A stretch of 32,000 nucleotides of DNA from Acaryochloris marina MBIC11017 (GCF_000018105.1 NC_009931.1:32962-64961), one strand, 5' to 3'. Positions 9,410 to 29,421 are shown, numbered from the stretch's first letter. Notes: generated from the letters alone by a model not told the origin. A program made the numbers and translations.

Positions 9410-9467
9410 TGATTCAGCTTCTATTGAATTCAGTAAAGTTTGTCTTTTCTTCAAAGGAGTTCCTTTT

Positions 9468-13493: not shown

Positions 13494-13575
13494 AACGTGA
13501 CTGAAGGTGGCTTGATCCTAAGATAATTAACTCTAGATGGCTTTCTGCATACATTACTAATGACATTTTAATACT

Positions 13576-13622
13576 TGAGCAGTTATTCATATGTTAGGCT
13601 GTGAAGCATGAATGATTGTTCA
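13576..13622. promoter_or_regulatory. Two SmtB-type operator half-palindromes in the smtB-smtA divergent promoter
   Basis: TGAGCAGTTATTCA (13576-13589) and TGAATGATTGTTCA (13609-13622; reverse complement TGAACAATCATTCA) both resemble the Synechococcus smt operator core TGAACAGTTATTCA, recalled from memory. Confidence 0.6.
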
Positions 13623-13646
13623 TATATTTAGTTATGGAGGTTTGCA

Positions 13647-13814
13647 ATGGCAACCGTTACTCAAATGAAATGTGCTTGCGAGTCTTGTCTTTGCATCGTG
13701 ACGATTAGTGATGCGATTCAAAAAGGCGGTCAGTATTTTTGTGGCCAAGCCTGTGCAGATGGACATCCCTCAGGCTCGGGTTGTGGACATACGGGTTGTC
13801 GATGCAGTTCATAA
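13647..13814 (+). CDS. smtA: Bacterial (SmtA/BmtA-type) metallothionein, 55 aa
   Basis: This gene is not in the ORF track because it is under 60 aa. GGAGG (13636-13640) lies 6 nt before the ATG. The translation is MATVTQMKCACESCLCIVTISDAIQKGGQYFCGQACADGHPSGSGCGHTGCRCSS. It aligns with Synechococcus SmtA (KCACEPCLC...YYCSEACADGH...GCGHTGC). Confidence 0.87.
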   Translation: MATVTQMKCACESCLCIVTISDAIQKGGQYFCGQACADGHPSGSGCGHTGCRCSS

Positions 13815-13856
13815 TTTGAACTAAGCCCGCTTTTGTATTGATCTGAATGGATGGAA

Positions 13857-16349
13857 TTAGAGGAGCTTCAAAGGATCGACATCAATTTGAAGACGTAAAT
13901 TTTGTGGACACCGTTGTTGGCATTCTTGTCTGGGAAACGGCCAGTGTTCAGACTGGCCCAGTTTAGCCTGGGGGCGTTTAACTAACACATGCCAATAATA
14001 TCGTCGGGCTACTCTCAAAATACTAGCGGGAGCAGGACCGAGAATACTGCCCTCATAGCGATGTAATTGGATATAAGCCTTTAGGTAATTGGCAATATCT
14101 AGGGCAGTATTCTCAACCATCGTTTCATTGAGACCACTGATGCGTAGGAGGATTAGTTGTTGGAAGGGCGGATAATTGGCTTCCCGGCGCTGCTTGAGTT
14201 CATTGATGAGAAAGGTATTCATTGAATATTGTTGAACGGCCTGAATGACGGGGTGTTCCGGAGCATAGGTTTGTAGGATTACTTGGCCAGGATGCTCCCC
14301 ACGACCTGCGCGTCCTGCCACTTGTAGCAGGGTCTGAAAGGTGCGTTCACTGGCCCGAAAATCGGGAATATTGAGTAAGCTATCTGCAGCCAAAACGCCA
14401 ATTAATTGAACTTGGGGTAAATCAATTCCTTTAGTGAGCATTTGTGTACCAACCATTAGGTCTGCCTGGCCACGGGCAAACTGATTTAGAAGCTGACGAT
14501 GGGCTCCTTTCCGACGAGTGGTGTCACTATCAAAGCGAATCACTCGCAATTCGGGAAACGTTTTGTCTAATTCCTGCATGACTCGCTGGGTCCCACTTCC
14601 AAAAAATCGGAAGTAAGAGGACTTGCAGACAGGACAAGCTTGCGGTTGGGGCTGAGTGTAGTTGCAATAATGGCATCGCAACAGAGTTTGACGGGAATCA
14701 GGGCTATGGTGGTAGGTCATAGAAATGCTGCAGTGAGGACATTCAGCGACATAACCACAACTGCGGCAAGAGACAAAAGTGCTATGGCCTCGACGAGGCA
14801 TAAATAATAGCCCTTGCTGATGCTTCTGCTGCAGTTCTTGCAAGCGTTTTTTCAATAGTCGACTGAAGATGGAATGATTGCGATTGGCCAACTCCAGGCG
14901 CATATCCACTATTTCGATGGGGGGCATGGGGCGAGCATTGACTCGCTGAGGGAGTTGAAGGTAATGAACCTTGCTCTGTGATAGATGAGGCTCACATCGC
15001 CGTGTTTGGGACCAACTCTCTAGGCAAGGCGTTGCTGAACCGAGGATAAGGGGACAGTCTTCCTGTTGGGCGCGCCACCGAGCAACGGTGCGAGCATGAT
15101 AACAAGGGGCTGGCTGATCCTGTTTGTAGCCGGTATCATGTTCTTCATCTAGAACGATCAGTCCCATATTGGCTACTGGTGCGAAGATTGCTGACCGGGT
15201 GCCAATGACGACTTGGGGAGTGCTAGTGAGGAATTGCCGCCAGGTATCATACCGTTCTCCATCTGAAAGGGCACTGTGATAGACCCGAATGCGATCGCCA
15301 AATCGAGACCGAAACCGATCCGTCAGTTGCGGCGTAAGCCCAATTTCTGGCACCAGGACAATCACCGACTGCTGGCGAGCTAAAACAGGTGTAATAGCCT
15401 GCAAATAGACTTCTGTTTTACCGGAACCCGTGACGCCATGCAGTAAGACCTCAGCGTAACCTTGCAGCCGATTAAGTTGAGACAGGACCTTGGCTTGGTC
15501 GGGGGTTAGCATTCGAGGTTGATCTGGCTGAATCGGAGAGGTTTCCAACCGTAGTCGTTCCTGTTGCTGCAGGGTGATACAGCCTTTACTAGCTAATTTC
15601 TTGAGGGTGTTGCTACTTGTATGGGCAAGTCTCAACAGATCTTGTGCCCATAACTCCCCACCTTCTTGATTGAGAAGGGTCAGAATTTCCTGCTGACGCT
15701 TCGTCAAGTCCGGTACGTTGAGGGTCGTGAAGGTAACCACTTGTTGCTGTTTAGGCTGGGTTGGCGCTTGAGTTTGGAGGTAGCTTTTAACCAGACCTCG
15801 CTGTTGGAGCTCTCTTAAGCCGACCTGGGCTTTTTTGACCTGACGACGAAGGTATTGCCAGGTATAGTCTTGGGTTGGACTTTGTTGCAGGAGCGTTAAA
15901 ATGTCTTGGGCAGCTGTTCCTAAACCGTGGACATCAACGGAATTGATGGAAGTGTGCAAACGAATGCGGCGTTGAGATCGCTGCAACAAACCCGGTGGCA
16001 AGGCTACTCGAATGACGGCCATCAACGACGTGTGATAGTAGGCGGCGACTTTTTCTAAAATCTGCCAATATCCCGGTGGAAATAAATTACGACAGACCAC
16101 ATCCACGACACTCAAAATCCTAGTAGTGGTTAGTTCTGGCGGAAGATCCGACAAGCAACGCATGGCGATTGCCCCCACTTGTCGTGCACCAAAGGGAACG
16201 TTGAGAATATCCCCAGGGCAAATATTGAGATCAGAAGGAATACGGTAAGTAAAAAGCTTATCAGTGCCAGGACAATCAACGAGGACTTCTACAAAAGAAG
16301 CCCCTTTAGATGTAGGAATTACTGTAGGAGGAGCTTTGGGTGTCGACAT
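13857..16349 (-). CDS. priA: Primosomal protein N' (replication restart helicase PriA)
   Basis: This is an 830-aa ORF. Motifs are Walker A LLHGVTGSGKTEVYL and the DEAH-type VLDEEHD. The Cys-rich zinc region is CRSCGYVAECPHCSISMTYH...LRCHYCNY...CPVC. Confidence 0.93.
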   Translation of the reverse strand: MSTPKAPPTVIPTSKGASFVEVLVDCPGTDKLFTYRIPSDLNICPGDILNVPFGARQVGAIAMRCLSDLPPELTTTRILSVVDVVCRNLFPPGYWQILEKVAAYYHTSLMAVIRVALPPGLLQRSQRRIRLHTSINSVDVHGLGTAAQDILTLLQQSPTQDYTWQYLRRQVKKAQVGLRELQQRGLVKSYLQTQAPTQPKQQQVVTFTTLNVPDLTKRQQEILTLLNQEGGELWAQDLLRLAHTSSNTLKKLASKGCITLQQQERLRLETSPIQPDQPRMLTPDQAKVLSQLNRLQGYAEVLLHGVTGSGKTEVYLQAITPVLARQQSVIVLVPEIGLTPQLTDRFRSRFGDRIRVYHSALSDGERYDTWRQFLTSTPQVVIGTRSAIFAPVANMGLIVLDEEHDTGYKQDQPAPCYHARTVARWRAQQEDCPLILGSATPCLESWSQTRRCEPHLSQSKVHYLQLPQRVNARPMPPIEIVDMRLELANRNHSIFSRLLKKRLQELQQKHQQGLLFMPRRGHSTFVSCRSCGYVAECPHCSISMTYHHSPDSRQTLLRCHYCNYTQPQPQACPVCKSSYFRFFGSGTQRVMQELDKTFPELRVIRFDSDTTRRKGAHRQLLNQFARGQADLMVGTQMLTKGIDLPQVQLIGVLAADSLLNIPDFRASERTFQTLLQVAGRAGRGEHPGQVILQTYAPEHPVIQAVQQYSMNTFLINELKQRREANYPPFQQLILLRISGLNETMVENTALDIANYLKAYIQLHRYEGSILGPAPASILRVARRYYWHVLVKRPQAKLGQSEHWPFPRQECQQRCPQNLRLQIDVDPLKLL

Positions 16350-16577: not shown

Positions 16578-17805
16578 TCAAGATGAGCAGCTATAGTGCG
16601 AAACGCCACCAGCATTAAAAAACGCCTTAGGTCTTAGACGATAGTATTTATCTTCTACGTCTTGCGATTGCTCATCATATGGATAGCTCAGTACTTCTTG
16701 CAGCTCTTTAACTAATGTGTAGTCACCCTGCATGGCTTGTTGGTAGGCGGGGACAATCAACCACTCTCTCCATGTGTATTTTGGATTAGTCTGTTTCATA
16801 TGTTTTGATATCTCAGCCAAATTGCCGTCCTTAATAACGAGGTCGCGCCAGCTTTTTAGCCAAGATTGCCATTGTTCGTCGAGTTGTTGTGACGTTTTGC
16901 CATAGAAGCTCTTTTTCAAAGCTGAGACATCCTCAGGTATGTGGGATAACTCCCGGAAGAAAATGGTGTAATCTACCGCTGAGTTGGTCATTAACTGCAT
17001 TAATTCCTTAAACAGCTCTGGGTTAAACTCAGTCAAGCCAAGTTTGGCTGTCCACATTTTTTGGACCTGTTTTTCCATGACTTCTGCAAAGCTGCGGCCT
17101 ACTTGGTCAAACTGTTCTAAAGCATCAGCATCTTCTGACAGTAGCGGTCTTACCGCTTTCCAAAACATATAATAATTCGCTTCTGCTGCGATGGGCTGAT
17201 AGAAGAATGAAAATTGTTCGGCGCCGCCAGTCCAAGGTTGAAACCAAGGGTCAAAAACTTCACAAAACCCAAAAGGTCCATAGTCGAGGGTAAAGCCACC
17301 AGCGGCGCAGTTGTCGCTGTTAAAATTACCCTGGCAGTAACCAACACGTAGCCAATTGGTCACCAGGGAAGTGAGACGTTGGCGAAATAGCGTAGCCAAC
17401 TCAACCAATTGATCAGCAAAACCAAGGTTTTGATTAATATCGCTTTTGTATTCTCGCTCCATTAAATGGGACACGATCATGCTCAACTCTTCTAAGGCTC
17501 TTGGATGAGCCTTGTTGCGAGCGCGGCGGGCAAATAACTCTAGTTGCCCCACGCGCAAAAAGGAGGGGGCAACGCGAGTTGAAATGGCCACAGGATCGTC
17601 CATCAAAACATCAGGGTCAGTGGAGTAGGAGTTTTGAGAATACCAAGGCCGCTTAACGGTCTCAGATTTAGAAGCATACAGGGTCAAAGAACGCGATGTT
17701 GGCACACCTAAAGCCTGCATATATTCTTGCGCAAGAAACTCACGCACACTAGAACGGAGTACTGCGCGCCCGTCGCCACCACGGCAATAAGGTGTGGGGC
17801 CACCC
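16578..17805 (-). pseudogene. selO: selO (YdiU/UPF0061 protein adenylyltransferase) pseudogene, C-terminal part
   Basis: Motifs are [52 protein letters not shown] and [22 protein letters not shown]. The frame continues from the N-terminal part at 27629-28113 once the intervening 9,823 bp and one copy of the 10-bp duplication are removed. Residues upstream of PWGGP in the track ORF are IS-derived read-through. Confidence 0.85.
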
Positions 17806-17891
17806 CAGGGCGACCGCACATAGAAGTTAACAAAGCAGTCGAATTCGGAAGAGGTGGAGGATAATGCCTCAAAAACAACGCTCAGCAAGCC

Positions 17892-18488
17892 ATGACATCC
17901 TCTCCCTTTGCCTCAATTATTGAACACTTCAGCGACTTAGACGACCCGAGAGCAGCCCACCGCATAGAGTATTCGCTAGAAGATATCATCATCATCACCC
18001 TATGCGCTGTCCTTTGTGGAGCAGATAATTGGGTGGAAGTGGCCAACTATGGTCGTTCCAAAGCCCAGTGGTTAAAGCAATGGATAGCATTGCCAAACGG
18101 TGTTCCCTCCCATGACACCTTCGAGTGGGTCTTTGCCAGATTGAAACCTCAACAATTGCAGCAGTGCTTTCTCAATTGGACTCAAGCCATCTATCAACTG
18201 AGCGCAGGAGAATTGATTGCGATTGACGGCAAGACACTCCGGGGCGCGATTGCGCCAGGTGAGCAGTGCAGCTTGATTCACATGGTCAGTGCATGGGCCA
18301 GTCACAATCGTCTAGTTTTAGGTCAACGCACCGTTGACGAGAAATCCAATGAGATTACGGCTATTCCTGAATTACTGAAAGTGTTAGAGCTTGAAGGAGC
18401 CTTGGTCAGTATTGATGCGATGGGCTGTCAAACAGCGATTGCCGAGACGATTATTGAGGGCCAAGGTGATTATGTGTTGGCCCTCAAA
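17892..18488 (+). pseudogene. ISAs1-family transposase, fragment 1 of 3 (N-terminal 199 codons)
   Basis: Motifs are FSDLDDPRAAHRIEYSLEDIIIITLCAVLCGADNW, IAIDGKTLRG, HMVSAWAS and SIDAMGCQTAIA. The fragment ends ...DYVLALK at the Tn3-family insertion point. The track ORF tail 18489-18572 is read-through into the Tn3 IR. Confidence 0.86.
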
Positions 18489-18673
18489 GGGGTAATTGAA
18501 GGGTCGCTGACACCAGCTGCAATCAAAATAGATCACCCCCCAAAACAGGGCAAATTCACCTCTAATCAATAAGTTTTACTTAAGTATTTTTTGCCGCTGT
18601 ACTACTCGATAGTCGAGCAAAGGTTGCCTTGCTGAGATGGGCCTCAACTCAGCAACCTCACTGCAGCTACTCC

Positions 18674-19492
18674 CTACGCAGCCAAGTTTTCAATCACCAG
18701 ACGCTCATTCATGTTTAGTCGGAAACGCCCATAAGGATTGATATGAAGGTAGAACAGGGGCGTTAACGCCCTCAAATCTTCTTCTTGCATACGATTCATC
18801 CACGTCGGCTCAGAAAGTACTTTTTGAATCATCAGCGTATTGATATAGACCAGGCTGATTTGTAGTAGGTGCAAACACAGCATGGATAGCTCTTGCATAG
18901 CCGTTTGATTACTGGCAAAGTCACCATTCTTGCCATAGAAGATGAAGTCATTGGCACTATTCCAATTCTCAACGACATTCAAGCCTTCGTTGATCTCTTG
19001 CCGTAAGGCCTCATCATGCAAATACTGGCAAAGGAAGATGGTCTTAATGGCTCGCCCTAATTCAGCCAAAGCAAGATAGGTGGGGTGCTTGATGTTGTTA
19101 CGGGTGAACCGACTCAGAATCGCTTCCGGTTCGGCAGTACCTTGCTTCATCGCGGTTGTGAACTGAATCATTGGCTCGTACTGCTCCCGCACCAGATCCC
19201 AACGAATGGGTCGCTTTAGAATCGTTGTCAAATGGACATACTTCTTCTTCTGCCCAGACATCGGCAGGTAGAGCTTCTGTTTGTTGATGCCTTTGAAGCG
19301 AGGCATCAACTGAAAATTCAGCAAATAGCAAAAGGCAAACCCCACCTCGCTTTGGCCATGGGTATCCACATAACTTTTATTCACTGACATTTGCGTGCAG
19401 TGTCGAAGTACGCCCTTCACCATAAAGGCCACCTCCGAAGAAGAACACTTCTTCAGTTGCGAGTAGATACATACGGATTTTTTCTCGACATG
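18674..19492 (-). CDS. tnpA: Tn3-family transposase TnpA, exon 2 (C-terminal 272 aa)
   Basis: The exon begins [31 protein letters not shown]... and carries the second catalytic Asp (YVDTHGQSE) and the Glu ([19 protein letters not shown]). It is in frame with exon 1 after intron removal: 819 nt plus 2130 nt gives 982 codons plus a stop. Confidence 0.85.
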
Positions 19493-21946
19493 GTTAACCT
19501 AAGCCGGAGGATCACTCCTCCGACTTGGCTTCAAAACCGTGCGTAAATCTTTCGATTTACACGGCTCCTCAGTGGCTTGGTGCTTGTCATACATACCATT
19601 TGGCCTGAGAGGACTTCTCCTTGGCCGTTTTAACATAATGACAATGTCTGTGTAGTAGTTGAAGATTCTTGTATACGTCCAATCCTCCCATTGATGTAGG
19701 GAGAATGTGATCCACTTCAAGTAAATCTTCTTCTCGGAAGAACATGCCGCACTGAGCGCATTTCCCCTTCTGCTTCTTCAAGAGCATAGATACTCTCTTC
19801 GGAGCTTCTGGATGCTTCCCAGTCCTTGAACTCCAGTAAACTAGATTGCCATTGTAGGGACTTGCATCCCCCTTGACTTTGACATGGCGGATAATTGGAG
19901 TCTGTCGATGTTTGAGTAATTTTTCGGTTCTAGATTTAGTTACTCTAGTCGCGAAGACCCATTTATCTCCCCCGACAGTTTGCCAATATTTATTCACCAC
20001 CCATTTCCTGGATTTGCCAGGATGGCGGTGGTTAGCCCATGTTTGAAGCTTTTGATACAGTAAATGGTCTAGACGGGAGAAGGTCTCTTTACTAGCCATG
20101 GTCGAATAATATCTCGTCCATCCTCTAATCACGGGATTGAGGTGGCGGATTAATGCCGCTTGCGGCGCTGCCTTATGGGCGTTGATGATACTAACGAGCC
20201 GATTGTAATGTACTTTTTGCTTCTTTCGACTGGGGGTAATGATGGTCTTAAATCCCAGCAATGTCCCGCATAATCTCCCCGATTGATGTTGACCGACCGG
20301 GAATTGTCTAACTGAGAATCCTAGAAAATCAAATCCAGGGTTTTCAGCTTCATACCTTTTGAGAGTATGGGATATATGCGTTTTGCTAGGTTTTAGTTCC
20401 AACCCCATGTCTTTTAGCCACTCATGAACTAAGCTCTGACATCTTTGAACTACGGATAAATCCTCGTGAAGAATCACGAAGTCATCACAGTATCGAATGA
20501 CATCAGGAGTAGCAATTCTTTTTCGCTTATTCCCGTCGGCAATCTTTCTGATAGGAAAGGCTTGCTTGATTCGATACTCTAGGCCATGGAGGGCTACATT
20601 TGCCAACAAAGGAGAGATAGTCCCCCCTTGAGGTGCTCCTTCAGATGTCTGTAAGAACTGATGACCATCAATTACCCCAGCTTTTAGCCAAGTTTTTATT
20701 TGTCGGCGTAGAGTGGGAAAGGTCTTCAGCTTTTTGAGCAGTGCTTCGTGGTTTATTCGGTCAAAACATTGGGCTATATCAGCGTCCAACACATATTTTG
20801 CTTTCTGTTTAATGGCTGCAAAAATTTGTTCTATCGCGTCATGACATGAACGGCCTGGTCTTGAACCATAGGAGTTTGGTTCGAAAACCGCTTCCCATTC
20901 AGGTTCCAGGGCTAGTTTGACTAGTGTCATTCTTGCCCTTTCATACAGGGTCGGTATACCCAAAGGACGTTGTTCGTCTTTTCCTGGTTTAGGAATCCAC
21001 ACCCGTCTGGTGGGAGGGGCCTTTGAGCCGAGTTTAAGTTGACCCACTAGGGGCAGACGAGCTTCTGGGGACAGAGATTTAACTCCATCCACACCTGCCG
21101 TCTTTTTTCCCTGGTTGTCTTGTGTGACCCGTCTAACTGAAAGGCATTTGGCTGACCAGGACCTCATCAGAGTTTTCTGGAGTCTATGTACTACTTTGAC
21201 ATCGCCACGTTGTCTGGCTCTGAATATGCGCTTTTGCAACTTAAACACTTTCCGCTCTAGTTTTGGCCAGGGGATTGCGCTCCATTCCATCATCGGTTTG
21301 ACCCGTGCTTTAGACATATTTATTGCTACTTGTTCCTATTCATTCCAAGTCACCGTGAGTCTGTCTGCTTATCCTCACCATTACAGTGGGGCTTTTGCTT
21401 TTGACCCAATCCTTCCCACCGCCTAACTTCTGGTTAGCACCTACTCTTAGCCAATCGACCTCCAAGAGAGATAGGCGGGGGTTACTTCGTTCCTAATAGC
21501 CATTGATTGAACTGTTAGAGTGATGCGCTCCACCGGGTTTATTGGAAGTGCTAACTGGTCGCTACTGGACACGCCAGCTCCGTATATCCTTGCCCTTTTG
21601 GGACTCCCAGCGTTATCAACCTAATTTCGCTGGTTAATGATTACGGTGGGTTAACCACATCTTCGCTTTCGCTACTCATAAGTTCTTGCTCGAAGGGGTT
21701 CAGAGCTAGGCTCCCTGTTACCTCCTTTTTTCCCCGCTTCAGGCGTTGATGGCTAGTCGCGAACCTGGGGGAAATGCTGTCACCGCTGCACCTGCGGGAT
21801 AGGACTAGAGCGGTCTAGGATACTGACTCTCACCTATATGGCTATTAAGTTGTCAAGGTACAGTTGGGATATTTTCCCCTTCTTTACGCTTGCGGCTAAT
21901 CCCCTCAAACCCTATTCAGGTCTAGTTTCTAGCCAACGAATCGCAC
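19493..21946 (-). mobile_element. Group II intron (2,454 nt, ORF in domain IV) interrupting tnpA in the sense orientation
   Basis: The 5' end is GTGCGATTCG (complement of 21946 downward), directly after the TGG codon. Domain V is GAGCCGTGTAAATCGAAAGATTTACGCACGGTTT (19534-19567). Domain VI is CCAAGTCGGAGGA-GTGA-TCCTCCGGCTTAGG with a bulged branch A at 19500, 7 nt before the 3' end ...GGTTAAC (19493). The EBS1 candidate CCAGTAG (complement of 21562-21568) pairs with the last 7 exon nt, CTACTGG. Confidence 0.88.
19587..21317 (-). CDS. Group II intron-encoded reverse transcriptase/maturase with a C-terminal HNH endonuclease domain
   Basis: This is a 576-aa ORF. RT motifs are RVWIPKPGKDEQRPLGIPTLYERARM, GAPQGGTISPLLANVAL and YCDDFVILH (YxDD). 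The maturase/X region is RGWTRYY. The HNH domain is CAQCG...EVDHILPTSMGG...LQLLHRHCH. Confidence 0.93.
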   Translation of the reverse strand: MSKARVKPMMEWSAIPWPKLERKVFKLQKRIFRARQRGDVKVVHRLQKTLMRSWSAKCLSVRRVTQDNQGKKTAGVDGVKSLSPEARLPLVGQLKLGSKAPPTRRVWIPKPGKDEQRPLGIPTLYERARMTLVKLALEPEWEAVFEPNSYGSRPGRSCHDAIEQIFAAIKQKAKYVLDADIAQCFDRINHEALLKKLKTFPTLRRQIKTWLKAGVIDGHQFLQTSEGAPQGGTISPLLANVALHGLEYRIKQAFPIRKIADGNKRKRIATPDVIRYCDDFVILHEDLSVVQRCQSLVHEWLKDMGLELKPSKTHISHTLKRYEAENPGFDFLGFSVRQFPVGQHQSGRLCGTLLGFKTIITPSRKKQKVHYNRLVSIINAHKAAPQAALIRHLNPVIRGWTRYYSTMASKETFSRLDHLLYQKLQTWANHRHPGKSRKWVVNKYWQTVGGDKWVFATRVTKSRTEKLLKHRQTPIIRHVKVKGDASPYNGNLVYWSSRTGKHPEAPKRVSMLLKKQKGKCAQCGMFFREEDLLEVDHILPTSMGGLDVYKNLQLLHRHCHYVKTAKEKSSQAKWYV

Positions 21947-24076
21947 CCAGTAGATCATCACCCCCCGGCCGCCATAACGAACATGCCATTCCGTCATCAA
22001 ATTCTGGTCCCAAGATTCAAAGTGCCGAGAATCAGACGCACAGGCAGTGGTGGCTTCCCCCCAGACATGAGAAAGGCGAATCTGGAAAATCGCATTGGCC
22101 ACATCCGTAATGGCACAGCTGAGGGCCATTTTGCTTAAAAATTTGCGTCGGACATAATGCAATTCAAAGTATCCTGCATCGGCTTCTGAATGAGCGATGC
22201 GCTTAATCCCTAAATTAGTGCCCAGTCCGTAAATGCACAACAGTAAGCGCTTGCGCAGGGACTGAGGTTTCAATATTTCACGACTGGCCGCACTCTTGAA
22301 ATGTTGGGTGAAATCAATCCGAAAGTCCGCTTCTTTGAGCACATCCAACAAATGCGTTAGAGACCACCGGTTGTTGATCTCTTCCTTGAGCTTCTGGATG
22401 TTCATGGGTTCAGGTTGTGCCTCCAGAGGAGATACCTTAACGCGTCCCCCTCGCTTACTCAAGATCTCAACTTTAGAATTGTGAGGCATCCCCTGATTCA
22501 AAAGGGTCAAAGCATTTTCCATATCAGCCTGGATTTGAGCGATGAAGGTTTCCACCTCTAGGGGCTGTTGTAGATCCTGGTAATATTCCTCTCGCCGCTC
22601 GTCAAAGTCTTGGGGTAAATCCAGATCGGGATTGCGATAGCGATTGGCACCGGCGACCCAAATTTCCTTACACCGTAGTTTCTCTCGCAAGGCCCTGAGG
22701 ACACACATCTCATAGGCGATGCGATCTACTTTGTCTGGCTGGTCCTCATCCTGACCTAACACCGTCTCTTGCCAGTCTGCACTGACGACCCCTTCAATGG
22801 GGACGTCATCTTCTGAGGCATAAGGTTTTCGGGGGGTGTCCACATAGGCTTTGAGTAAATCCACAGCCTGCAGGATGGGCTGGTATTGCTTGTTATTGCA
22901 CCGAAAGTCAATCACTTCCAGTACCGCAGGAAGCATTTGCCGATAATGATGACCGTAGGAAGAACGGATCCTCGAGTGTAGAAGTTGTCGGTAAGTCTGA
23001 CCGCCATCATTATAGGAATCAACAAATGTTTCCAGGGTTTGCTCACTGGCAACGGGGTAGATAACGTCTCTGACCAAGCCATCTGGTGTGGCTAGGGCTG
23101 CGGTGGCCACCTGATAAAACAGTTGGGTATGAGAGTCGGTTTTTTTGACTTTAGCGATCACCTCTGACGTCACTTTATTCTTGCTGCGTGTATCAATGCG
23201 ATGAACGATCTGAATCAATAAATCCATGATGTTGTCGATGATCTCTTGGCACCGCTGCCAGCAGAAACTCGCGAGTAAGGTGAGTCGGATGGTTTTGGGG
23301 TGATGCCTCAACTCTGATAAGGTTTCTGTCTCCACTCGGAGCCGATAACACTCCAGAACTCGTGGGCTTAGATGAGAAAACAGGGTATCAGGCAAAGCCA
23401 CTTGGCGGAGTCGTTGGAGTTTGATGACTTCTGAAAGCAGGCTATTGAGACCGACTGGTCCTGGGTCTTTTTTCAACGCACTTAGGGGAGGATCTGGGAT
23501 CTCTTTACCTGGGGTCACCTTGGGTTCTTGGATCAATTCATCGAGCTCAGTCTGAGTTTGCTTGGACAGGTGCTGAAGAGTTGAGGAAAAAAACTTGCGT
23601 TCAAACAGGCGTTGAGCGGACCGGATTAAACGCTCAATCCTAGCAGGGGCAGGTGGTTCAATCTGAAGTGAACGCAGTTGAGCATAGACTTTTAATTTCA
23701 GATGATGATAGTCCTGCTCTTGACTGAGGAAGGTATCGACTAACCAAGTGCGAAGTTGGTTTTGGTCTGCCACAGTGGCTTGTCGAAATCCGGAAAATTG
23801 GCGAATCTGGGCTCTGTGATAATAGCTATTCCTCCCATGCCAGTCATAGCTCTGGAACAGCTCGGGCAGTAGTTCTAACTGTTCTGCGACGAAGGTCAGT
23901 GCCATACGAGGAATCTCATACTTCTGTTCAGGGAAGCGTCCTTCATATTGGAAAAATTTAAGCAGCAGGACAAATCCTAAGCGGTTTGCTCCTTGACGTC
24001 TGGCCAATAGATGCTCCTCGTCAGGTTGGATAGACCAATGCTCAAGCAGCTCTTCTGGATGCCATTTCCGTTTCAT
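21947..24076 (-). CDS. tnpA: Tn3-family transposase TnpA, exon 1 (N-terminal 710 aa)
   Basis: The DUF4158-type N-terminus is MKRKWHPEELLEHWSIQPDE...LGFVLLLKFFQYEGRFP. The first catalytic Asp region is ACASDSRHFESWDQNLMTEWHVRYGGRGVMIYW. The last 5 residues of the track ORF (VRFVG) are intron read-through. Confidence 0.87.
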
Positions 24077-24249
24077 GCAATTACGCTCCTATGAAAGTGA
24101 ATTCATTAGAGCGTAAGGCAAGTTTTTGTACTATAAGCGTAGATTATGAATTAAGGGTGATGGAAGTCAATGGAGTTTACAGTTCTTAATGGCTATAAGC
24201 TTTACTAGGTAAGGGATTCAGCCTTGATTGCAGCTGGTGTCAGCAACCC

Positions 24250-26081
24250 TGACACTGTTGGCGAATTCCAAGAAGTCACGCTGGTAATGGCTGAAGTATC
24301 CTCTTGAAAAGAGATACACGAGTTTTTGCTAGTGGAACATCATTAAACCAAGCGTCTAAGCGGACAAAATTGAGAGCAATGGCACAGAAAACATTCTGTA
24401 GATGGCTCTTCGCTAACCCGATATACCTTGATTGGCGCATGCCAAATCGCCGTATTCCCTGTGAATGGGTACTCTCAACACCAGCCCGCAGGCTATATTT
24501 TTCCTTGAACTCAGTAGTTCGTTGTACCTGACGTCGTTCATTAAGGGCTTGATGTAACTCACGGGGACGGAACGTCAACTCTCTTGGCTGGGTCTTTGAT
24601 TTCGTACATTGAGATCGCACTGGACAACTTCGGCAAGTGGTCCCCTGGAACCTTGCTTGAATGACATCCTTTCCGTGAATATCCTTTCCAGGCAACCATT
24701 TCGTACTGAAGTGGCCTTGAGGACAGACAACCTTCTGTTGGTCCCAACTGATGAGGAAGAAGCTCGAATCAAATCCGTTTCCTGCCTTTGCTTGCCAACT
24801 ATGATTTTGACGCACTGGACCAATAACATCCATGTCATATTCTGCTTTGCTATTCACCAAATGCTCTGCCGAGAGGTAACCCCCATCTAACAAATGCTCT
24901 TTAGGCAACAACTGTTTTTTAGCCAGAGCCAGGTGAATGGGTTCAACAACTTGATCATCTGGAACCGTTGCACTGGTGGTGTGCACATGAGTGATGAGAC
25001 GTGGACTTTCAGGATCACACACTTCTGTTAAATGAACTTTATAGCCCACCCAATCCATACTTCTTTTATTGCTATAGCGGGCTTCGACATCGTAAGGAGA
25101 ATGAATGGATGAATCAGAAGGGGGCATATCCTTCACTTTTCGCCATTCGACTGTGCCGTCTGCATTGGGCGGGTAGAATCGCTGGAGCCAGACTTGTCGC
25201 AGAGTTTCCACTGCAGGTAGATGCTTTAACCACGGTGGTGAACTAGGGGCATATATGGCGTCAAGCAGTGTCAAACCATCTTGACCGATAGTACTGCCCA
25301 AAGCTTTGCGTTCGCTATCGGGTTTGGGCAAGCGATAATTCTCTATTCGTCGACCATAGCGATCAAACCAGTCATCGTGCATGTGTTCGCTTAACCACTG
25401 TGGATCTGCGACAACCAAACTATTGAGAGCAGCCCGAAAGGTTTCACCAAATAACTCCAACCGATTGAGGGTTCGGATCGACGCTAGGATATGGGTCGCA
25501 TCCGTTCGTTGTTGATGGTGTTCTTTAAGGAACCCTTTTGCTTGAAGGTGCTCAAGGAAGCTATCAAATAGCTGTTGTTCCTTGTCACCCGCGATCAGAC
25601 GCTTGCGAAATTCACTCAAAACAGAATAATTAAATCCAGAGTCTCTCAGCGGTAGGCTCAGGGCATATTTCCAATCTATCCGGGCTCGAACGGCATCAGC
25701 CGCTTGACGGTCTGAAAGATTCTCAAGAAATTGCATGATGCAAACTAGCACAAGCTGCCAGGGGGATAGAGCTGGTTGTCCTTTCTTCGGAAACAGATCA
25801 GCAAAATCGTGATCGTGATAGATAATGCCAAGTTCATCACGTAGTTGCATATACAGATTGCCATCAGGAAAGGCAGCCCTAGCTACTTCAATGGTTTCAC
25901 TGGGGATGTCCAACAAGTCTGTCGGGCGCATAGACATAACAATGAGCCTCCAGAGTGAGCGTGATTGAGTTTGAGTTTTAGCAGTACCATACCTCAATCC
26001 ACAAAAGGCTTACTGCATCAAGTGTTAGAAGCTATTTTCAGCCGACTTAGATCATTGCGGAATATTTCGCCAACAGTGTCA
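24250..26081 (-). mobile_element. IS1182-family (IS5-like) insertion sequence, 1,832 bp, inserted inside the right IR of the Tn3-family element
   Basis: The terminal IRs are TGACACTGTTGGCGAA (24250-24265) and TTCGCCAACAGTGTCA (26066-26081), a perfect 16 of 16 match. The 4-bp TSD ACCC lies at 24246-24249 and 26082-26085. Confidence 0.85.
24276..25937 (-). CDS. IS1182-family DDE transposase
   Basis: The ORF has an ATG (complement of 25935-25937) preceded by GGAGG. The track's TTG start at 25997 adds 20 residues. The N-terminal transposase domain is ...PALSPWQLVLVCIMQFLENLSDRQAADAVRARIDWKYALSL. The C-terminal region is ...GVESTHSQGIRRFGMRQSRYIGLAK. Confidence 0.84.
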   Translation of the reverse strand: MSMRPTDLLDIPSETIEVARAAFPDGNLYMQLRDELGIIYHDHDFADLFPKKGQPALSPWQLVLVCIMQFLENLSDRQAADAVRARIDWKYALSLPLRDSGFNYSVLSEFRKRLIAGDKEQQLFDSFLEHLQAKGFLKEHHQQRTDATHILASIRTLNRLELFGETFRAALNSLVVADPQWLSEHMHDDWFDRYGRRIENYRLPKPDSERKALGSTIGQDGLTLLDAIYAPSSPPWLKHLPAVETLRQVWLQRFYPPNADGTVEWRKVKDMPPSDSSIHSPYDVEARYSNKRSMDWVGYKVHLTEVCDPESPRLITHVHTTSATVPDDQVVEPIHLALAKKQLLPKEHLLDGGYLSAEHLVNSKAEYDMDVIGPVRQNHSWQAKAGNGFDSSFFLISWDQQKVVCPQGHFSTKWLPGKDIHGKDVIQARFQGTTCRSCPVRSQCTKSKTQPRELTFRPRELHQALNERRQVQRTTEFKEKYSLRAGVESTHSQGIRRFGMRQSRYIGLAKSHLQNVFCAIALNFVRLDAWFNDVPLAKTRVSLFKRILQPLPA

Positions 26082-26102
26082 ACCCTTCAATTACCCCTCA
26101 AA

Positions 26103-26611
26103 GGCAATCAAGGTGATTTATATAACGATGTGGTGCAACTGTTTGACCATGCTTGTCAGACTCAATTTCAGGGGATTGAGCATGATAGCTATCAAACCGT
26201 CGAGAAAGGGCATGGGCGAATTGAGCATCGCACCTATTGGACAATGGGGCAAACCGATTACTTACTGGGGGCTGAGCGTTGGGCTCAATTGAAGTCGATT
26301 GGGTGCGTTGAATCGTGTCGTCGTCAGCCAGGACACCCAGGCACACTTCAGCGGCGCTATTACCTTTTGAGCATTGAGAGTGATGCACAACGGTTTGCCG
26401 ATGCTGTGCGCTCTCATTGGGGGATTGAAAACCAGTTGCACTGGATTTTGGATGTGGGATTTCGTGAAGATAAACTGCGTGCCTGTCAGGGATGCAGTGC
26501 TCAAAACCTATCCGTCATTCGTCATCTTGCAGCTAATTTGCTGCAGCAAGAGTCAACGGCTAAATGTGGGATTAAGGCAAAACGGCTCAAGGCAGGTTGG
26601 GATGATAACTA
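26103..26611 (+). pseudogene. ISAs1-family transposase, fragment 2 of 3
   Basis: The fragment resumes GNQGDLYNDVVQLF... and carries the C-terminal signature HWGIENQLHWILDVGFREDK. It is cut at ...GWDDNY by the IS630 insertion. The track ORF portion 25965-26102 is IS1182 and Tn3-IR sequence, not coding. Confidence 0.85.
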
Positions 26612-27555
26612 TAGCACTACGGATATATGTTAGTACGCTCTTTGAAAGCAGCATCCACACAATCACGAAAGGTATCAAATTCATCCCACCGCTGCTTCAT
26701 CCAGTTTTTGAGCACAAACCACCATCGCTCGATTTTATTGAGATCTGGAGAATAGCTCGGTAGATACCAAATCTCACAGCCTGCTTCAGCTACGATTTCT
26801 TCGATCCTCTGGCCATGATGAAAACTGGCATTATCAATCACAATCACATCGCCAAGTTGTAACTGGGATATAAGACTCTGCTGTAACCACGCTTCGAATA
26901 ACAACCGATTGCAAGACCCTTCAAAGGTCATGGGAGAAAATAACTGGCCTTCTTTGAGCGCAGCAATAAAACTGACTCGCTCTGTCCGCTTGCCTGATTT
27001 GAGGTCATAAAATCGTTGACCCACAGGGCAGTATCCATAAGGATAGTCCGCTCGATTATCGATACCCGCTTCGTCTACATAGACGATCTGATGAGGGTGT
27101 TTGGTCTGTAATCGTTCTATAAATGCTTGACGTTGTGTTTCATCTCGTTCTCGATAGCCATAGGTCTTTTTTTTCGACTCAATCCCAGTTTTCTCAAGGC
27201 ATCACTGATATTTTGCTGGGTGACATTATCCCCCCATAGCTTAGCCATTTGGGCCTGGGTTTTACCCCCATGCTCTTGAGCAAATTCACGAAAGCGCTCC
27301 CAATCTGTGATCTTGTGGCGAGCCCCTTGTTGGTAGTTGGTAATCGCCTGACAGTCACCTGTAGCTTCTTCGCGGACTATCCATAGATGCAAGGTATTAC
27401 GGCTGATGTTCAACATTCGACAGATATCGACTTTCCGTTCACCATTCTTGAAGGCATCAACGGCTTTACGACGAAGGTCATAACTATAGGGTGCTGGCAT
27501 ACTAATGTAGGGATATCTTCTATATCAATAGTACTAACATAGTTTCGTAGGGCTA
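26612..27555 (-). mobile_element. IS630-family insertion sequence, 944 bp, inserted at a TA in the 3' end of the ISAs1 transposase gene
   Basis: The 25-nt IRs are TAGCACTACGGATATATGTTAGTAC (26612-26636) and the reverse complement of 27531-27555, TAGCCCTACGAAACTATGTTAGTAC. They match at 21 of 25 positions. The TA duplication lies at 26610-26611 and 27556-27557. Confidence 0.82.
26617..27500 (-). CDS. IS630-family transposase, two overlapping frames joined by a -1 frameshift on an A8 run
   Basis: OrfA has the HTH ...ICRMLNISRNTLHLWI... and ends ...LGLSRKK. The frame -1 ORF continues KTYGYRERDETQRQAFIERL...YVDEAGID...VIDNASFHH...LPSYSPDLNKIERWW (DDE_3). The slippery run AAAAAAAA is the complement of 27167-27174. 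The fused product is 294 aa. Confidence 0.8.
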
Positions 27556-27557
27556 TA

Positions 27558-27606
27558 CCTGGTCAAGATCCTCAGCGTTGCTGCCAAGGGAATACCTTCT
27601 TCATGA
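27558..27606 (+). pseudogene. ISAs1-family transposase, fragment 3 of 3 (last 16 codons plus stop)
   Basis: Joining 26611 to 27558 gives ...GWDDNY LVKILSVAAKGIPSS*. The reconstructed transposase is 597+509+49 = 1155 nt, or 384 aa, and ends 4 nt before the IRR. Confidence 0.65.
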
Positions 27607-27628
27607 AGAACTATGTGCGGTTGCCCTG

Positions 27629-28113
27629 GGGGCCACCCCCTTTCAATTGCATTTCCCAGCGTTGGCCATTGATGATTCCTTCAAACACAGATATCGCCCG
27701 ACCATCGCCATAGCCGTTACCCGTACCGAAGGGACATTGTTGGTTATATTCGGTGCCAAGAATCGACAGTGCATAACCCGTCGTCCAGCCAATCTGACGC
27801 ATAGGCTCATGGGCAGCAGTGATATCACCCGAAAATACATGGCGAAATTTTTCATTCAGCGCCAGCTCATCGCTTAACCCAAGTTCCTTAAAAAAGTGCT
27901 GCTATGAGCTACGTATTCTGGTTCTGCAAGCGGCGTGGGTGTTACAGGTACGAAATGTCCAGAAAAAACCTGGCGAGCACGGTGATCATCGCCATCGACC
28001 GTGGCATCAGGATCAGCATCTAAGGTGTCCATCAGAGAATAATCCGCCAATTGCACAAACTCATCGAAGGTCGTTACGCAGGGCTCAGCAGACGGTTTAG
28101 CTGGATATGACAT
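27629..28113 (-). pseudogene. selO: selO pseudogene, N-terminal part (also carries a 1-nt frameshift)
   Basis: The ATG is the complement of 28111-28113. The translation is MSYPAKPSAEP...[12 protein letters not shown], then one frame over [83 protein letters not shown]. It joins to [13 protein letters not shown] at 17795. Together these form the SelO Gly-rich loop region. Confidence 0.82.
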
Positions 28114-28760
28114 TGTTGCTAGCGTCGGTATGGTCGGGATAGGTTCTATGTTTAATTTTAGACCTTGCAGAGGTATTGCAACGATTAACCACATGAAGAA
28201 CCATAGAGCTGCAAGGCAATGGCAGTATATATTCTGGCTTGCAGTACTCCCAAACCCTGAATATTGCGAGGAAAATTATAAAAAAGGGGTCTTATTAAGG
28301 GAAGATCATCCTTTTTGAATGTTTAATAAAATTGGGCCATATCGCCCTAAAGGATGCCCTTGTAAAGGTTCAGATAGTCTGGAACCTTCTTGTGAAGTTC
28401 ATCTATTAAAGAAGGGACTGAAAGTCCCAATCTATAGCTGCGTCGTCAACTTATCGATCTGATGTGATATGAAAACCTCTAGCTGTTAGTGCTATAAATC
28501 TCTATTTTTAGAAGTGTGTAGCAGCTAAAGCCTTGCACTAAAGTGCATAGTTTTGGACTAGCGTGTTTAGGATAATAAAAAAATATCGAACCCCGCCTCC
28601 TCTAATGCCTGTTCCCTGTTAGAACTGAATCTATAAAATTGACTATACAACCGACCACAAGAATCAAATTCTAAGATCTGAAAATTAACCACTTGCCTTC
28701 TAATAAACAGCTGAGTACTATATCTTAGTCAATCTATCTTCACTCAGGATACGAAGAACA

Positions 28761-29156
28761 GTGGTTACACTCAAAGACGCACGCCGGATCATTGAAGCTG
28801 CTGAGAAAAAGGCAGAGGAAATCGGCCAACCGATGAATATTGCAGTCGCAGATAGTGGTGGCAATTTAGTTTCTCATGTAAGGATGGATGGAGCCTGGAT
28901 TGGTAGTATTGATATCTCAATCAAAAAGGCATATACATCGCGGGCTTTCGATATCTCCACCAAAGACTTAGCTGAATATAGCCAATCTGAGGGACAATTC
29001 TTTGGAATACATGCTTCCAATGGGGGAAAAATCATGATCTTTGCTGGAGGAATACCTCTGGTTCAAGATGGTCGAGTGGTTGGCGCTATAGGTGTCAGTG
29101 GTGGCTCAGGAGAGCAAGATCATGCTGTTGCAGAGGCTGGTGCAGAAGCCTTTTAA
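28761..29156 (+). CDS. GlcG/HbpS-like (DUF336) putative heme-binding protein
   Basis: This is a 131-aa ORF with a GTG start. The family pattern is PMNIAVADSGGNLVSHVRMDGAWIGSIDISIKKAYTSRAF...GGIPL..DGRVVGAIGVSGGSGEQDHAVAEAG. Confidence 0.8.
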   Translation: MVTLKDARRIIEAAEKKAEEIGQPMNIAVADSGGNLVSHVRMDGAWIGSIDISIKKAYTSRAFDISTKDLAEYSQSEGQFFGIHASNGGKIMIFAGGIPLVQDGRVVGAIGVSGGSGEQDHAVAEAGAEAF

Positions 29157-29421
29157 ATGAACTAGCCCACCCTATAGAAGCATGGGACTGACGCCGATTT
29201 CTTCAATTTCTCAAGAACCAGCTAGCACAGAGATAATGTCTCTAACCGTTATGAAAAGGAGACGCTTGAGGCAGTCCCTCCAACATGGGAAAGACGCTAC
29301 AATTCGCCCTGTACTGTGGGCAACTCCGCCCATACCTGGTGGAAAGCGTTCCGTTAGAAATAGCAAATGGGTCAAACTCACAGTTCATAACTTGATATAG
29401 GAGGCTGCAACTCGGGTTGGC

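What the first reader, a model, noticed from the sequence alone, without database searches (positions are those of the whole stretch)
16578..28113. Five mobile elements nested within one another inside selO, resolvable to the base
(1) The SelO codons ...EMQLKGGGP | [13 protein letters not shown]... are separated by 9,823 bp. That insert is bounded by 18-bp IRs starting CAGGGC and a 10-bp duplication GGGGCCACCC, which marks an ISAs1-family IS. (2) Its transposase is cut between ...DYVLALK and GNQGDLY... by an element with 38-bp GGGG-initiated IRs and a 5-bp duplication TCAAA, which marks the Tn3 family. (3) The Tn3 tnpA is interrupted by a group II intron. (4) The Tn3 right IR is split by an IS1182-family IS with 16-bp perfect IRs and a 4-bp duplication ACCC. 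(5) The ISAs1 3' end carries an IS630-family IS with 25-nt IRs and a TA duplication. Removing each insert together with one duplication copy restores uninterrupted ORFs. These are an ISAs1 transposase of 384 aa, a Tn3 TnpA of 982 aa, and a SelO of 567 codons apart from one frameshift. The stripped element sizes are 1263, 3319, 2454, 1832 and 944 bp. Every family shows its hallmark duplication length, which supports genuine sequential transposition over assembly artefact. It also gives a relative chronology: ISAs1 inserted first, then Tn3 and IS630, then IS1182 and the intron.
Basis: seen in the sequence. Interest (0 to 1): 0.75.

Follow-up and report, generated by a model that had tools for sequence, protein, structure and literature searches.

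The report
Five nested mobile elements in selO

Summary
The five family assignments all pass curated HMM cut-offs.

For each of the five inserts I found an uninterrupted "empty site" in other Acaryochloris DNA:
- An intact 567-aa selO in A. marina MBIC10699 plasmid pREC2.
- An intact 1263-bp ISAs1 copy with its own 10-bp duplication.
- An intact, intron-less 3319-bp Tn3-like IS with both 38-bp inverted repeats (IRs).

The window matches A. marina MBIC11017, a published genome very rich in insertion sequences. The IS1182-type element is the catalogued ISAcma45. The nest is therefore real but ordinary.

Three corrections:
- The chronology is only partly forced.
- A 4-bp duplication is typical of this IS clade, not a hallmark of the whole IS1182 family.
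- IS630 is not broken. Its two ORFs are joined by a conserved A8G −1 frameshift site.

Two additions:
- ISAcma45 is not in the Tn3 IR by chance. Every flank I could read abuts the same position (16/17) of this IR type. These flanks come from different Tn3 copies, both orientations and a 64%-identical relative.
- The identical intron sits at the same codon of a Tn3 transposase gene whose exons are only 50–70% identical.

The parts
16578..17805 (-). selO 3' portion, from codon ~159 to the stop. It includes the left copy of the 10-bp duplication GGGGCCACCC (17796-17805).
   Evidence: Matches Pfam SelO PF02696 at 217 bits. It is 99.5% identical to and colinear with A. marina MBIC10699 pREC2.
17806..18488 (+). 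ISAs1-family IS, left part. It holds the left IR CAGGGCGACCGCACATAG and transposase codons 1-199 (...DYVLALK). TCAAA at 18484-18488 is the left copy of the Tn3 duplication.
   Evidence: The restored 384-aa transposase scores 433 bits on NF033564 against a cut-off of 70. It matches a chromosomal MBIC11017 copy, P0377, at 382 of 384 residues.
18489..19492 (-). Tn3-family IS, part 1. It holds the intact 38-bp IR (18489-18526, GGGGTAATTGAAGGGTCGCTGACACC...) and tnpA exon 2 (stop at 18674, exon ends at 19492).
   Evidence: The restored TnpA of 982 aa scores 882 bits on NF033527 against a cut-off of 500.
19493..21946 (-). Group II intron, 2454 nt. The 5' GUGCG is at 21946. The intron-encoded protein (IEP, 576 aa, with RT, maturase and HNH domains) is at 19587-21317. 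Domains V/VI are at 19493-19569. A candidate EBS1, CCAGTAG, lies at intron position 379.
   Evidence: Rfam RF00029 scores 48.2 bits against a gathering threshold of 40. TIGR04416 scores 302.8 against a cut-off of 300. The identical intron sits at the same site in pREC1, and the exact empty site is seen in L012.
21947..24249 (-). Tn3-family IS, part 2. It holds tnpA exon 1 (ATG at 24076) and the inner 26 nt of the second IR, ending ...GCTGGTGTCAGCAACCC.
   Evidence: L144 has the same 3319-bp element uninterrupted.
24250..26081 (-). IS1182-family IS, known as ISAcma45, 1832 bp. It has 16/16 IRs (TGACACTGTTGGCGAA) and a 553-aa transposase at 24276-25937. ACCC is duplicated at 24246-24249 and 26082-26085.
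   Evidence: NF033551 scores 364 bits against a cut-off of 270. The transposase is identical to P0241, named 'ISAcma45'. Logan contig L019 equals the IS from end to end.
26082..26097 (-). The outer 16 nt (tip) of the split Tn3 IR, ACCCTTCAATTACCCC. It is followed by the right TCAAA duplication at 26098-26102.
26103..26611 (+). ISAs1, middle part, covering transposase codons 200-369 (GNQGDLY...DDNY). TA at 26610-26611 is the left copy of the IS630 duplication.
   Evidence: The chimeric GenBank protein ABW33119.1 is encoded exactly at 26076-26633.
26612..27555 (-). IS630-family IS, 944 bp. OrfA is at 27117-27500. An A8G slippery run lies at 27167-27174. A -1 frameshift there gives a 294-aa transposase.
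   Evidence: NF033545 scores 155.9 bits against a cut-off of 100. An 87.6%-identical copy with the same termini and TA flanks is in an A. marina S15 plasmid.
27558..27628 (+). ISAs1, right end, holding the last 15 codons and the right IR ...CTATGTGCGGTTGCCCTG.
   Evidence: The same termini are seen in L146.
27629..28113 (-). selO 5' portion, with the ATG at 28113. It holds the right copy of GGGGCCACCC (27629-27638) and a 1-nt deletion in the A-run at 27890-27895.

Best explanation
The region is a plasmid copy of the selO gene (protein adenylyltransferase SelO family) of Acaryochloris marina. Successive transposition events destroyed it.

Shown steps:
- A 1263-bp ISAs1-family IS inserted at codon ~159 and duplicated 10 bp.
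- A 3319-bp Tn3-family IS that carries only a transposase gene and no resolvase inserted into the ISAs1 transposase gene and duplicated 5 bp.
- A 944-bp IS630-family IS inserted at a TA near the 3' end of the same gene.
- A 2454-nt group II intron sits in the sense strand of the Tn3 tnpA gene, at a conserved ...MIYW|HVEKK... site.
- The 1832-bp IS1182-family element ISAcma45 inserted between positions 16 and 17 of one Tn3 38-bp IR and duplicated 4 bp.

Inferred steps:
- The intron arrived by retrohoming. Its ~15-nt 5'-exon recognition sequence is conserved even in distant Tn3 transposases, and it probably still splices.
- ISAcma45 is targeted to this position of this type of Tn3 IR. Its insertion separates the IR tip from the inner IR and so immobilises the Tn3 element.
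- IS630, ISAcma45 and the intron look intact. ISAs1 could now move only with a transposase supplied from another copy.
- selO is dead, and it also carries a 1-nt deletion.
For: Anatomy and restored ORFs.

Family HMMs above curated cut-offs.

Empty sites:
- pREC2 of MBIC10699 has an intact 567-aa selO with a single GGGGCCACCC. The two window flanks overlap on it by exactly 10 bp. The restored SelO is 98.4% identical to it.
- L146 (A. marina NIES-2412) has an intact 1263-bp ISAs1 with the same termini, its own 10-bp duplication CCTCTGCTAC, a single TCAAA and a single TA.
- L144 has a gap-free 3319-bp Tn3-like IS with both 38-bp IRs intact and no intron.
- L012 shows ...TACTGG|CATGTC... uninterrupted.

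Intron:
- It is about 100% identical in pREC1, where the surrounding tnpA is only 50-70% identical. Identity drops exactly at both intron ends.
- Short-read contigs break 15 nt upstream of the intron.
- A 7-nt EBS1 complement to the exon end is present.

IS630: the A8G run is conserved in the S15 copy, whose gene is annotated as a single 884-nt CDS.

ISAcma45 targeting:
- L018 carries a 100%-identical IS in a different Tn3 copy (91% identical flank). It sits in the opposite orientation, at the same position, with the same ACCC duplication and a different outer flank.
- L014, L020, L021, L022 and the L143 remnant all abut the same IR tip.
- L127, whose transposase is 64% identical, sits at the homologous position of a homologous IR. 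It has the duplication TCGA and lies next to a tnpA C-terminus.
- Seven more metagenome contigs show 4+12 nt ending in CCCC, followed by unrelated flanks.

Source: ABW33119.1 and the ISAcma45 transposase of MBIC11017 are encoded exactly in the window.
Against: - No read-level data were available, so the 10 junctions rest on one assembly. Independent short-read contigs cover only the intron junctions.
- The intact Tn3-like copy in L144 lacks a perfect 5-bp duplication (AATTT versus AAATA).
- L021 and L022 show the IS flanked by two IR tips in inverted orientation, with no 4-bp direct repeat. Simple insertion does not explain this.
- More distant IS relatives (L088, L150, L081, L033) are not obviously in Tn3 IRs. 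In one soil lineage the sequence beyond the 'CCCC' is itself conserved. The targeting may therefore be confined to a subclade.
- Splicing and transposition activity were not tested.
Confidence: 0.93

Rival explanations
1. The nest is an assembly artefact. Repeated elements were wrongly joined, so the junctions do not exist in the cell.
For: All five elements are multi-copy repeats in Acaryochloris. Short-read assemblies collapse them into contigs that end at the element boundaries.
Against: Each of the five inserts is flanked by a perfect duplication of the length that its type of element makes, and removing each one restores an ORF. A mis-join would not produce this. The chimeric ORF across the Tn3 tip, ISAs1 and IS630 junctions is an existing GenBank protein of MBIC11017. 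Logan contigs from other runs reproduce the intron-exon junctions at 100% identity.
Confidence: 0.02
2. The nest was partly or wholly built elsewhere and then moved as a unit. One version: the ISAs1-bounded segment, already carrying Tn3 and/or IS630, was mobilised into selO by a transposase from another ISAs1 copy. Another version: the Tn3 IS arrived with the intron already inside. The first reader's chronology would then be wrong even though the anatomy is right.
For: The ISAs1 IRs are intact. A nearly identical ISAs1 transposase (382 of 384 residues) is encoded on the chromosome and could act on them. MBIC11017 has at least two more Tn3 copies cut at the same codon by the intron (P0361 and P0366, both ending ...MIYWVRFVG). 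The intron is in the sense orientation, so tnpA may still be expressed.
Against: The intron is about 100% identical between hosts whose tnpA genes differ by 4-50%. This points to recent independent homing events, not co-transposition. IS1182 splits a Tn3 IR, so it must have arrived after Tn3. No second copy of any nested combination apart from Tn3 with the intron was found.
Confidence: 0.15
3. ISAcma45 is in the Tn3 IR by chance or by recombination, not by target choice. The 16-nt 'tip' seen next to many copies would then be part of the IS itself, as an extended IR starting GGGG.
For: L021 and L022 (88% relatives) and L067 carry inverted extensions on both sides with no 4-bp direct repeat. In one soil lineage the sequence beyond the CCCC is also conserved.
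Against: The window, L018 and L127 each have a tip on one side, the inner IR on the other, and a 4-bp direct repeat. Joining the two flanks rebuilds a complete 38-bp IR. The same 16-nt tip is native to the other, unbroken IR of the Tn3 element (18489-18504) and to the intact copies in L144. Contig L019 ends exactly at TGACAC...GTGTCA.
Confidence: 0.12

Closest known systems
Nested insertion-sequence clusters in IS-rich bacterial genomes, including Acaryochloris marina (PMC8763236; A. marina is the worked example in the ISsaga paper, PMC3129680)
   Same: Several IS families are inserted into one another, each with its own duplication, and they disrupt a dispensable gene on a plasmid.
   Different: It is five levels deep and fully resolvable. 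I found no paper describing this particular nest, although the literature search was limited.
IS4321 and IS5075 (IS1111/IS110 family), which target the 38-bp terminal IRs of Tn21-family transposons (Partridge & Hall 2003, cited in PMC11187229)
   Same: An IS is found again and again at one fixed position inside the 38-bp IR of a Tn3-family element, splitting that IR.
   Different: ISAcma45 has a DDE transposase of the IS1182/IS5 type, not a DEDD recombinase guided by an RNA. It makes a 4-bp duplication and is found in both orientations. The targets are cyanobacterial Tn3-like ISs.
IS1272 and ISPse1 (IS1182 family)
   Same: They have 16-bp terminal IRs. ISPse1 has 16/16 IRs and a 4-bp duplication (PMC3281130, Table 2). 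IS1272 prefers inverted-repeat structures as targets (PMC5678879).
   Different: IS1272 replaces the target IR and leaves no duplication. ISAcma45 here leaves the target intact apart from a 4-bp duplication, and it picks a specific sequence, not just any hairpin.
IS1071-type Tn3-family elements that carry only the transposase gene (from memory, not checked here)
   Same: A ~3.3-kb element with a ~980-aa TnpA, GGGG-initiated IRs and a 5-bp duplication, with no resolvase or passenger genes.
   Different: The IRs are 38 bp, not the ~110 bp of IS1071. This is a cyanobacterial lineage.
Bacterial group II introns located in other mobile elements
   Same: It has an RT-maturase-HNH protein encoded in domain IV, a 5' GUGCG, and a homing site inside a transposase gene in the sense orientation.
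   Different: The same intron occupies the homologous codon in two tnpA genes that are only 50-70% identical at the DNA level. Its homing site is therefore a conserved transposase motif.

Membership tests
ISAs1 family IS | Transposase matches the family profile | tested here: met
   NF033564 scores 433 bits against a cut-off of 70. Pfam DDE_Tnp_1_assoc and DDE_Tnp_1 also match.
ISAs1 family IS | Size ~1.2-1.5 kb, IRs starting CAGGG, duplication of 8-10 bp (ISfinder description, from memory) | tested here: met
   The element is 1263 bp with CAGGGC... IRs matching at 17 of 18 positions and a 10-bp duplication. An independent copy, L146, has the same termini and its own 10-bp duplication.
Tn3 family | Large DDE transposase of the Tn3 type | tested here: met
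   NF033527 scores 882 bits against a cut-off of 500. Pfam DDE_Tnp_Tn3 and DUF4158 also match.
Tn3 family | ~38-bp terminal IRs starting GGGG and a 5-bp duplication | tested here: met
   The IRs match at 37 of 38 positions after IS1182 is removed, and the duplication is TCAAA. L144 has both IRs intact.
Tn3 family | Resolvase and res site for cointegrate resolution | tested here: not met
   The stripped 3319-bp element has only one ORF of 100 aa or more, which is tnpA. It is therefore an IS-like member with a transposase only. The relative in pREC1 has a tyrosine recombinase next to tnpA.
Group II intron | Catalytic domains V/VI | tested here: met
   RF00029 scores 48.2 bits against a gathering threshold of 40, and the hit ends exactly at the inferred 3' end.
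Group II intron | Intron-encoded reverse transcriptase/maturase | tested here: met
   TIGR04416 scores 302.8 against a cut-off of 300. Pfam RVT_N, RVT_1, GIIM and HNH match.
Group II intron | 5' GUGYG, 3' AY, EBS1-IBS1 pairing, and precise exon junctions | tested here: met
   The 5' end is GTGCG and the 3' end is ...AC. CCAGTAG at intron position 379 is complementary to the last 7 nt of exon 1. Intron-less homologues carry the exact exon join.
Group II intron | Splicing and retrohoming activity | not testable with these tools
   This needs RT-PCR across the exon junction or a homing assay.
IS1182 family | Transposase matches the family profile | tested here: met
   NF033551 scores 364 bits against a cut-off of 270, while the IS5 profiles fall below their cut-offs. 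Relatives on plasmids are annotated as IS1182 family. One source's name for the identical protein is 'IS5-like element ISAcma45'.
IS1182 family | Short terminal IRs (~16 bp); duplication length varies within the family | tested here: met
   The IRs match at 16 of 16 positions. A 4-bp duplication is seen here and in L018, L127, L150, L088 and L109. ISPse1 has 16/16 IRs and a 4-bp duplication (PMC3281130). IS1272 makes none (PMC5678879).
IS630 family | DDE_3-type transposase with an N-terminal HTH domain | tested here: met
   NF033545 scores 155.9 bits against a cut-off of 100 on the C-terminal ORF. Pfam HTH_Tnp_IS630 and DDE_3 match. The joined product is 294 aa.
IS630 family | Insertion at TA with a TA duplication | tested here: met
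   TA lies on both sides of the element, and intact ISAs1 copies have a single TA at that site. The S15 copy is also flanked by TA.
ISs that target the terminal IRs of transposons (IS4321/IS5075-like behaviour) | Independent insertions recur at one position of the IR | tested here: met
   The window, L018, L014, L127 and further tip-flanked ends all show this.
ISs that target the terminal IRs of transposons (IS4321/IS5075-like behaviour) | DEDD recombinase, subterminal IRs, single orientation, no duplication | tested here: not met
   ISAcma45 has a DDE-type transposase, terminal IRs and a 4-bp duplication, and it occurs in both orientations. It behaves like these elements but is not a member of their family.

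The most novel reading that the evidence does not exclude
ISAcma45 and its cyanobacterial relatives are DDE-type 'IR hunters'. They recognise a conserved motif of the 38-bp IR of a family of Tn3-like ISs (N4 then TGCTGWCACCAG) and insert between IR positions 16 and 17. This disables the host transposon. It would be a second, mechanistically unrelated case of one transposon specialising on the ends of another, after the RNA-guided IS1111 elements. The forms in which the IS is flanked by two IR tips (L021, L022) would be products of two such insertions in one Tn3 copy, followed by recombination between them.
Probability: 0.6. Interest if true: 0.5.

Novelty: new member of a known kind. Interest (0 to 1): 0.33.

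Why it matters
The nest itself matters little. It is a neat textbook example of layered transposition in a published, IS-saturated genome, and it kills a plasmid copy of selO.

It is useful as a fully resolved case for testing IS-annotation software. It also gives a relative dating of element activity in Acaryochloris.

The two side results are of modest interest to people who study mobile DNA:
- A DDE-type IS that appears to choose one fixed position in the IR of a Tn3-family element. This is conflict between transposons and a possible new target-recognition mode in the IS1182 family.
- A group II intron whose homing site is a conserved Tn3 transposase motif, which lets it spread across very divergent transposons.

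Tried and rejected
- Exact-protein look-ups for PriA, the 573-aa IS1182 ORF (wrong start codon) and P0377 found nothing.
- The MBIC11017 plasmids are not in the plasmid collection. I could therefore not census all ISAcma45 or Tn3 copies in the source genome.
- The IS reviews by Siguier et al. are not held. The ISfinder family hallmarks are therefore cited from memory.
- I checked whether the high identity around the intron in pREC1 reflected co-conversion of the exons. It does not: identity falls from about 100% to 50-70% exactly at the intron ends.
- L151, an IS1182-family gene next to a Tn3 tnpA in an S15 plasmid, has different ends and was uninformative.
- I considered whether the IS chooses the site because TGACAC in the Tn3 IR resembles its own end, and whether an imperfect palindrome TTGC...GCAA starting at the insertion point acts as an IS1272-like hairpin target. 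The spacing differs between cases (L109 versus the window) and the stem is weak in L127, so I leave both as speculation.
- The 74-bp extra segment at 28361-28434 has no terminal IRs, no duplication and no other copy, so I do not call it a MITE.

Full report
**Observation**

The ORF map, direct reading of the junctions, the inverted-repeat scan and a scripted stripping of the inserts reproduce every number in the finding.

selO lies on the minus strand, from its stop at 16578 to its ATG at 28113. It is interrupted after codon ~158 by 9823 bp (17806-27628). This insert is bounded by CAGGGC... inverted repeats (IRs) matching at 17 of 18 positions and by a perfect 10-bp duplication, GGGGCCACCC.

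Inside that insert:
- A 7609-bp segment (18489-26097) is bounded by the duplication TCAAA. Once the IS1182-type insert and one ACCC are removed, it has 38-bp IRs starting GGGG that match at 37 of 38 positions.
- A 2454-nt group II intron (19493-21946, minus strand) lies within that segment.
- An 1832-bp element (24250-26081) has perfect 16-bp IRs and the duplication ACCC.
- A 944-bp element (26612-27555) has IRs matching at 21 of 25 positions and the duplication TA.

The stripped sizes are 1263, 3319, 2454, 1832 and 944 bp. Stripping restores an ISAs1 transposase of 384 aa and a Tn3 TnpA of 982 aa. It also restores a SelO of 567 codons, apart from one frameshift.

**What the elements are**

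All five assignments pass curated thresholds:

| Element | Model | Score | Cut-off |
|---|---|---|---|
| ISAs1 | NF033564 | 433 | 70 |
| Tn3 | NF033527 | 882 | 500 |
| Group II intron RT/maturase | TIGR04416 | 302.8 | 300 |
| Group II intron domains V/VI | Rfam RF00029 | 48.2 | 40 |
| IS1182 | NF033551 | 364 | 270 |
| IS630 | NF033545 | 155.9 | 100 |

The Rfam hit ends exactly at the inferred 3' end of the intron. SelO matches Pfam PF02696 at 217 bits.

The Tn3-family element has no resolvase and no other ORF of 100 aa or more. It is therefore an IS-like member that carries only a transposase.

The two IS630 ORFs are not a defect. They overlap at an A8G run (27167-27174), and a -1 shift there gives a 294-aa transposase. 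The run is conserved in an 87.6%-identical copy in an A. marina S15 plasmid, where the gene is annotated as one 884-nt CDS.

**Source**

The flanks are 97-99.5% identical to and colinear with A. marina MBIC10699 plasmid pREC2, in the order priA, selO, a heme-binding protein gene, gspE.

The window encodes two GenBank proteins of A. marina MBIC11017 exactly:
- The ISAcma45 transposase (ABW33121.1, plus three identical copies).
- The 185-aa chimeric 'hypothetical protein' ABW33119.1. It starts in the IS1182 IR next to the Tn3 IR tip, runs through the ISAs1 fragment and ends inside IS630. It lies on a 172,728-bp replicon.

The window is therefore from that published, IS-rich strain or one identical to it at this locus.

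**Empty sites for all five inserts**

1. ISAs1 in selO. pREC2 carries an intact 567-aa selO with a single GGGGCCACCC. The two window flanks align to it with a 10-bp overlap. The restored SelO is 98.4% identical to it. The window additionally lacks one A of an A7 run (27890-27895).
2. and 3. Tn3 and IS630 in ISAs1. L146 (A. marina NIES-2412) holds an intact 1263-bp ISAs1 copy, 92% identical, with the same CAGGGC...GCCCTG termini. It has its own 10-bp duplication CCTCTGCTAC, a single TCAAA and a single TA at the two sites. A chromosomal MBIC11017 transposase matches the restored protein at 382 of 384 residues.
4. The intron in tnpA. L012, L144 and L145 are intron-less relatives, 91-93% identical, carrying the exact exon join ...ATCTACTGG|CATGTCGAG....
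5. IS1182 in the Tn3 IR. L144 aligns without gaps over exactly 3319 bp and has both 38-bp IRs intact, including ...GTCAGCAACCCTTCAATTACCCC.

Intact copies elsewhere have the termini inferred here.

**The intron**

In pREC1 of MBIC10699 the same 2454-nt intron is about 100% identical. It sits at the same codon of a Tn3-family tnpA whose exons are only 50-70% identical at the DNA level. Identity collapses exactly at both intron ends.

The last 15 nt of exon 1 (GTGATGATCTACTGG) are identical in both hosts. Short-read contigs of several samples break 15 nt upstream of the intron. CCAGTAG at intron position 379 is complementary to the last 7 exon nucleotides.

Together this fits retrohoming into a conserved transposase motif. 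MBIC11017 has at least two more Tn3 copies cut at the same codon (P0361 and P0366).

**ISAcma45 is not in the IR by chance**

Every other copy whose flank I could read abuts the same IR at the same position.
- L018 has a 100%-identical IS in a different Tn3 copy, with a flank 91% identical. The IS is in the opposite orientation, has the same ACCC duplication and has a different outer flank.
- L014 and L020 show the IS next to ACCCTTCAATT(ACCCC).
- A degenerate remnant in an S15 plasmid has a degenerate tip next to it.
- L127, whose transposase is 64% identical, sits in the homologous IR GGGGTAGACATA-TCGA-TGCTGTCACCAGGGGCAAG. It has the duplication TCGA and lies next to a tnpA C-terminus.
- Seven further metagenome contigs show the IS end followed by 4+12 nt ending in CCCC, then unrelated AT-rich flanks.

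The closest known behaviour is that of IS4321 and IS5075, which target Tn21 IRs (Partridge & Hall 2003, cited in PMC11187229). Those are DEDD, RNA-guided elements. ISAcma45 is a DDE element that makes a 4-bp duplication and inserts in both orientations.

Within the IS1182 family:
- ISPse1 has 16/16 IRs and a 4-bp duplication (PMC3281130).
- IS1272 targets IR structures without making a duplication (PMC5678879).

Unexplained points:
- L021 and L022 have the IS flanked by two inverted tips with no direct repeat. Recombination between two IS copies sitting in the two IRs of one Tn3 element would produce this, but the outer flanks show no 5-bp Tn3 duplication.
- More distant relatives are not obviously in Tn3 IRs.

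**Chronology**

- IS1182 must have come after Tn3, because it splits the IR.
- The order of Tn3 relative to IS630 is open.
- 'Tn3 before the intron' is not forced by nesting, but it is favoured by divergence. The intron is about 100% identical between copies, while Tn3 copies are 91-96% identical.
- Whether the ISAs1-bounded unit entered selO empty cannot be decided. Its IRs are intact, and a transposase that could act on them from elsewhere exists.

**Verdict**

The object is ordinary for this genome, and all the elements belong to known families, one of them already named. The targeting of the IR by ISAcma45 and the conserved homing site of the intron are the only parts that go beyond the expected.

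Noticed in passing
window 3268-3412 (+): A cobalamin riboswitch (RF00174, 57.4 bits against a gathering threshold of 31.5) lies upstream of an ORF that starts at 3501.
   Followed up: no
window 28361-28434: A 74-bp segment upstream of selO is absent from MBIC10699 pREC2. It has no terminal IRs, no duplication and no second copy, and it can fold into two small hairpins. Its origin is unknown.
   Followed up: partly
window 27890-27895: selO has an A6 run where pREC2 has A7. This causes the frameshift. It is either decay after the gene was inactivated or a homopolymer sequencing error.
   Followed up: partly
L139 985-1215: A ~230-bp miniature element is bounded by Tn3-type 38-bp IRs (GGGGTAAATATAGCGAAAGTGTCATGAGGGGCAAG...). 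It truncates the 3' end of a relative of the IS1182-type element. It looks like a Tn3-derived MITE in the same metagenome lineage.
   Followed up: no
L109 2314-4219: A soil IS1182 relative lies 373 nt downstream of a Tn3-family tnpA. It is followed, after the 4 nt ACAG, by a ~118-nt mini-copy made of just the two IS ends. This is either a tandem arrangement or an insertion next to an IS end.
   Followed up: no
L021 28-1893; L022 ~440-2291: 88%-identical relatives of ISAcma45 are flanked on both sides by the 16-nt Tn3 IR tip in inverted orientation. There is no Tn3 body and no direct repeat.
   Followed up: partly
L010 (MBIC10699 pREC1) 2937-9928: A different Tn3-family transposon, with a tyrosine recombinase next to tnpA, carries the identical group II intron. 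A second copy is on another MBIC10699 plasmid, NZ_AP026079.1 (hit H2).
   Followed up: partly
window 11700-16349 and 28435-32000: The flanking genes (a second priA, metallothionein/ArsR, a heme-binding protein, GspE/PulE) are plasmid-borne and syntenic with pREC2. selO sits among duplicated housekeeping-type genes on a plasmid.
   Followed up: no
window 26076-26633: GenBank protein ABW33119.1 ('conserved hypothetical protein') is an artefactual chimeric ORF. It starts in the IS1182 IR next to the Tn3 IR tip, spans the ISAs1 fragment and ends inside IS630.
   Followed up: yes
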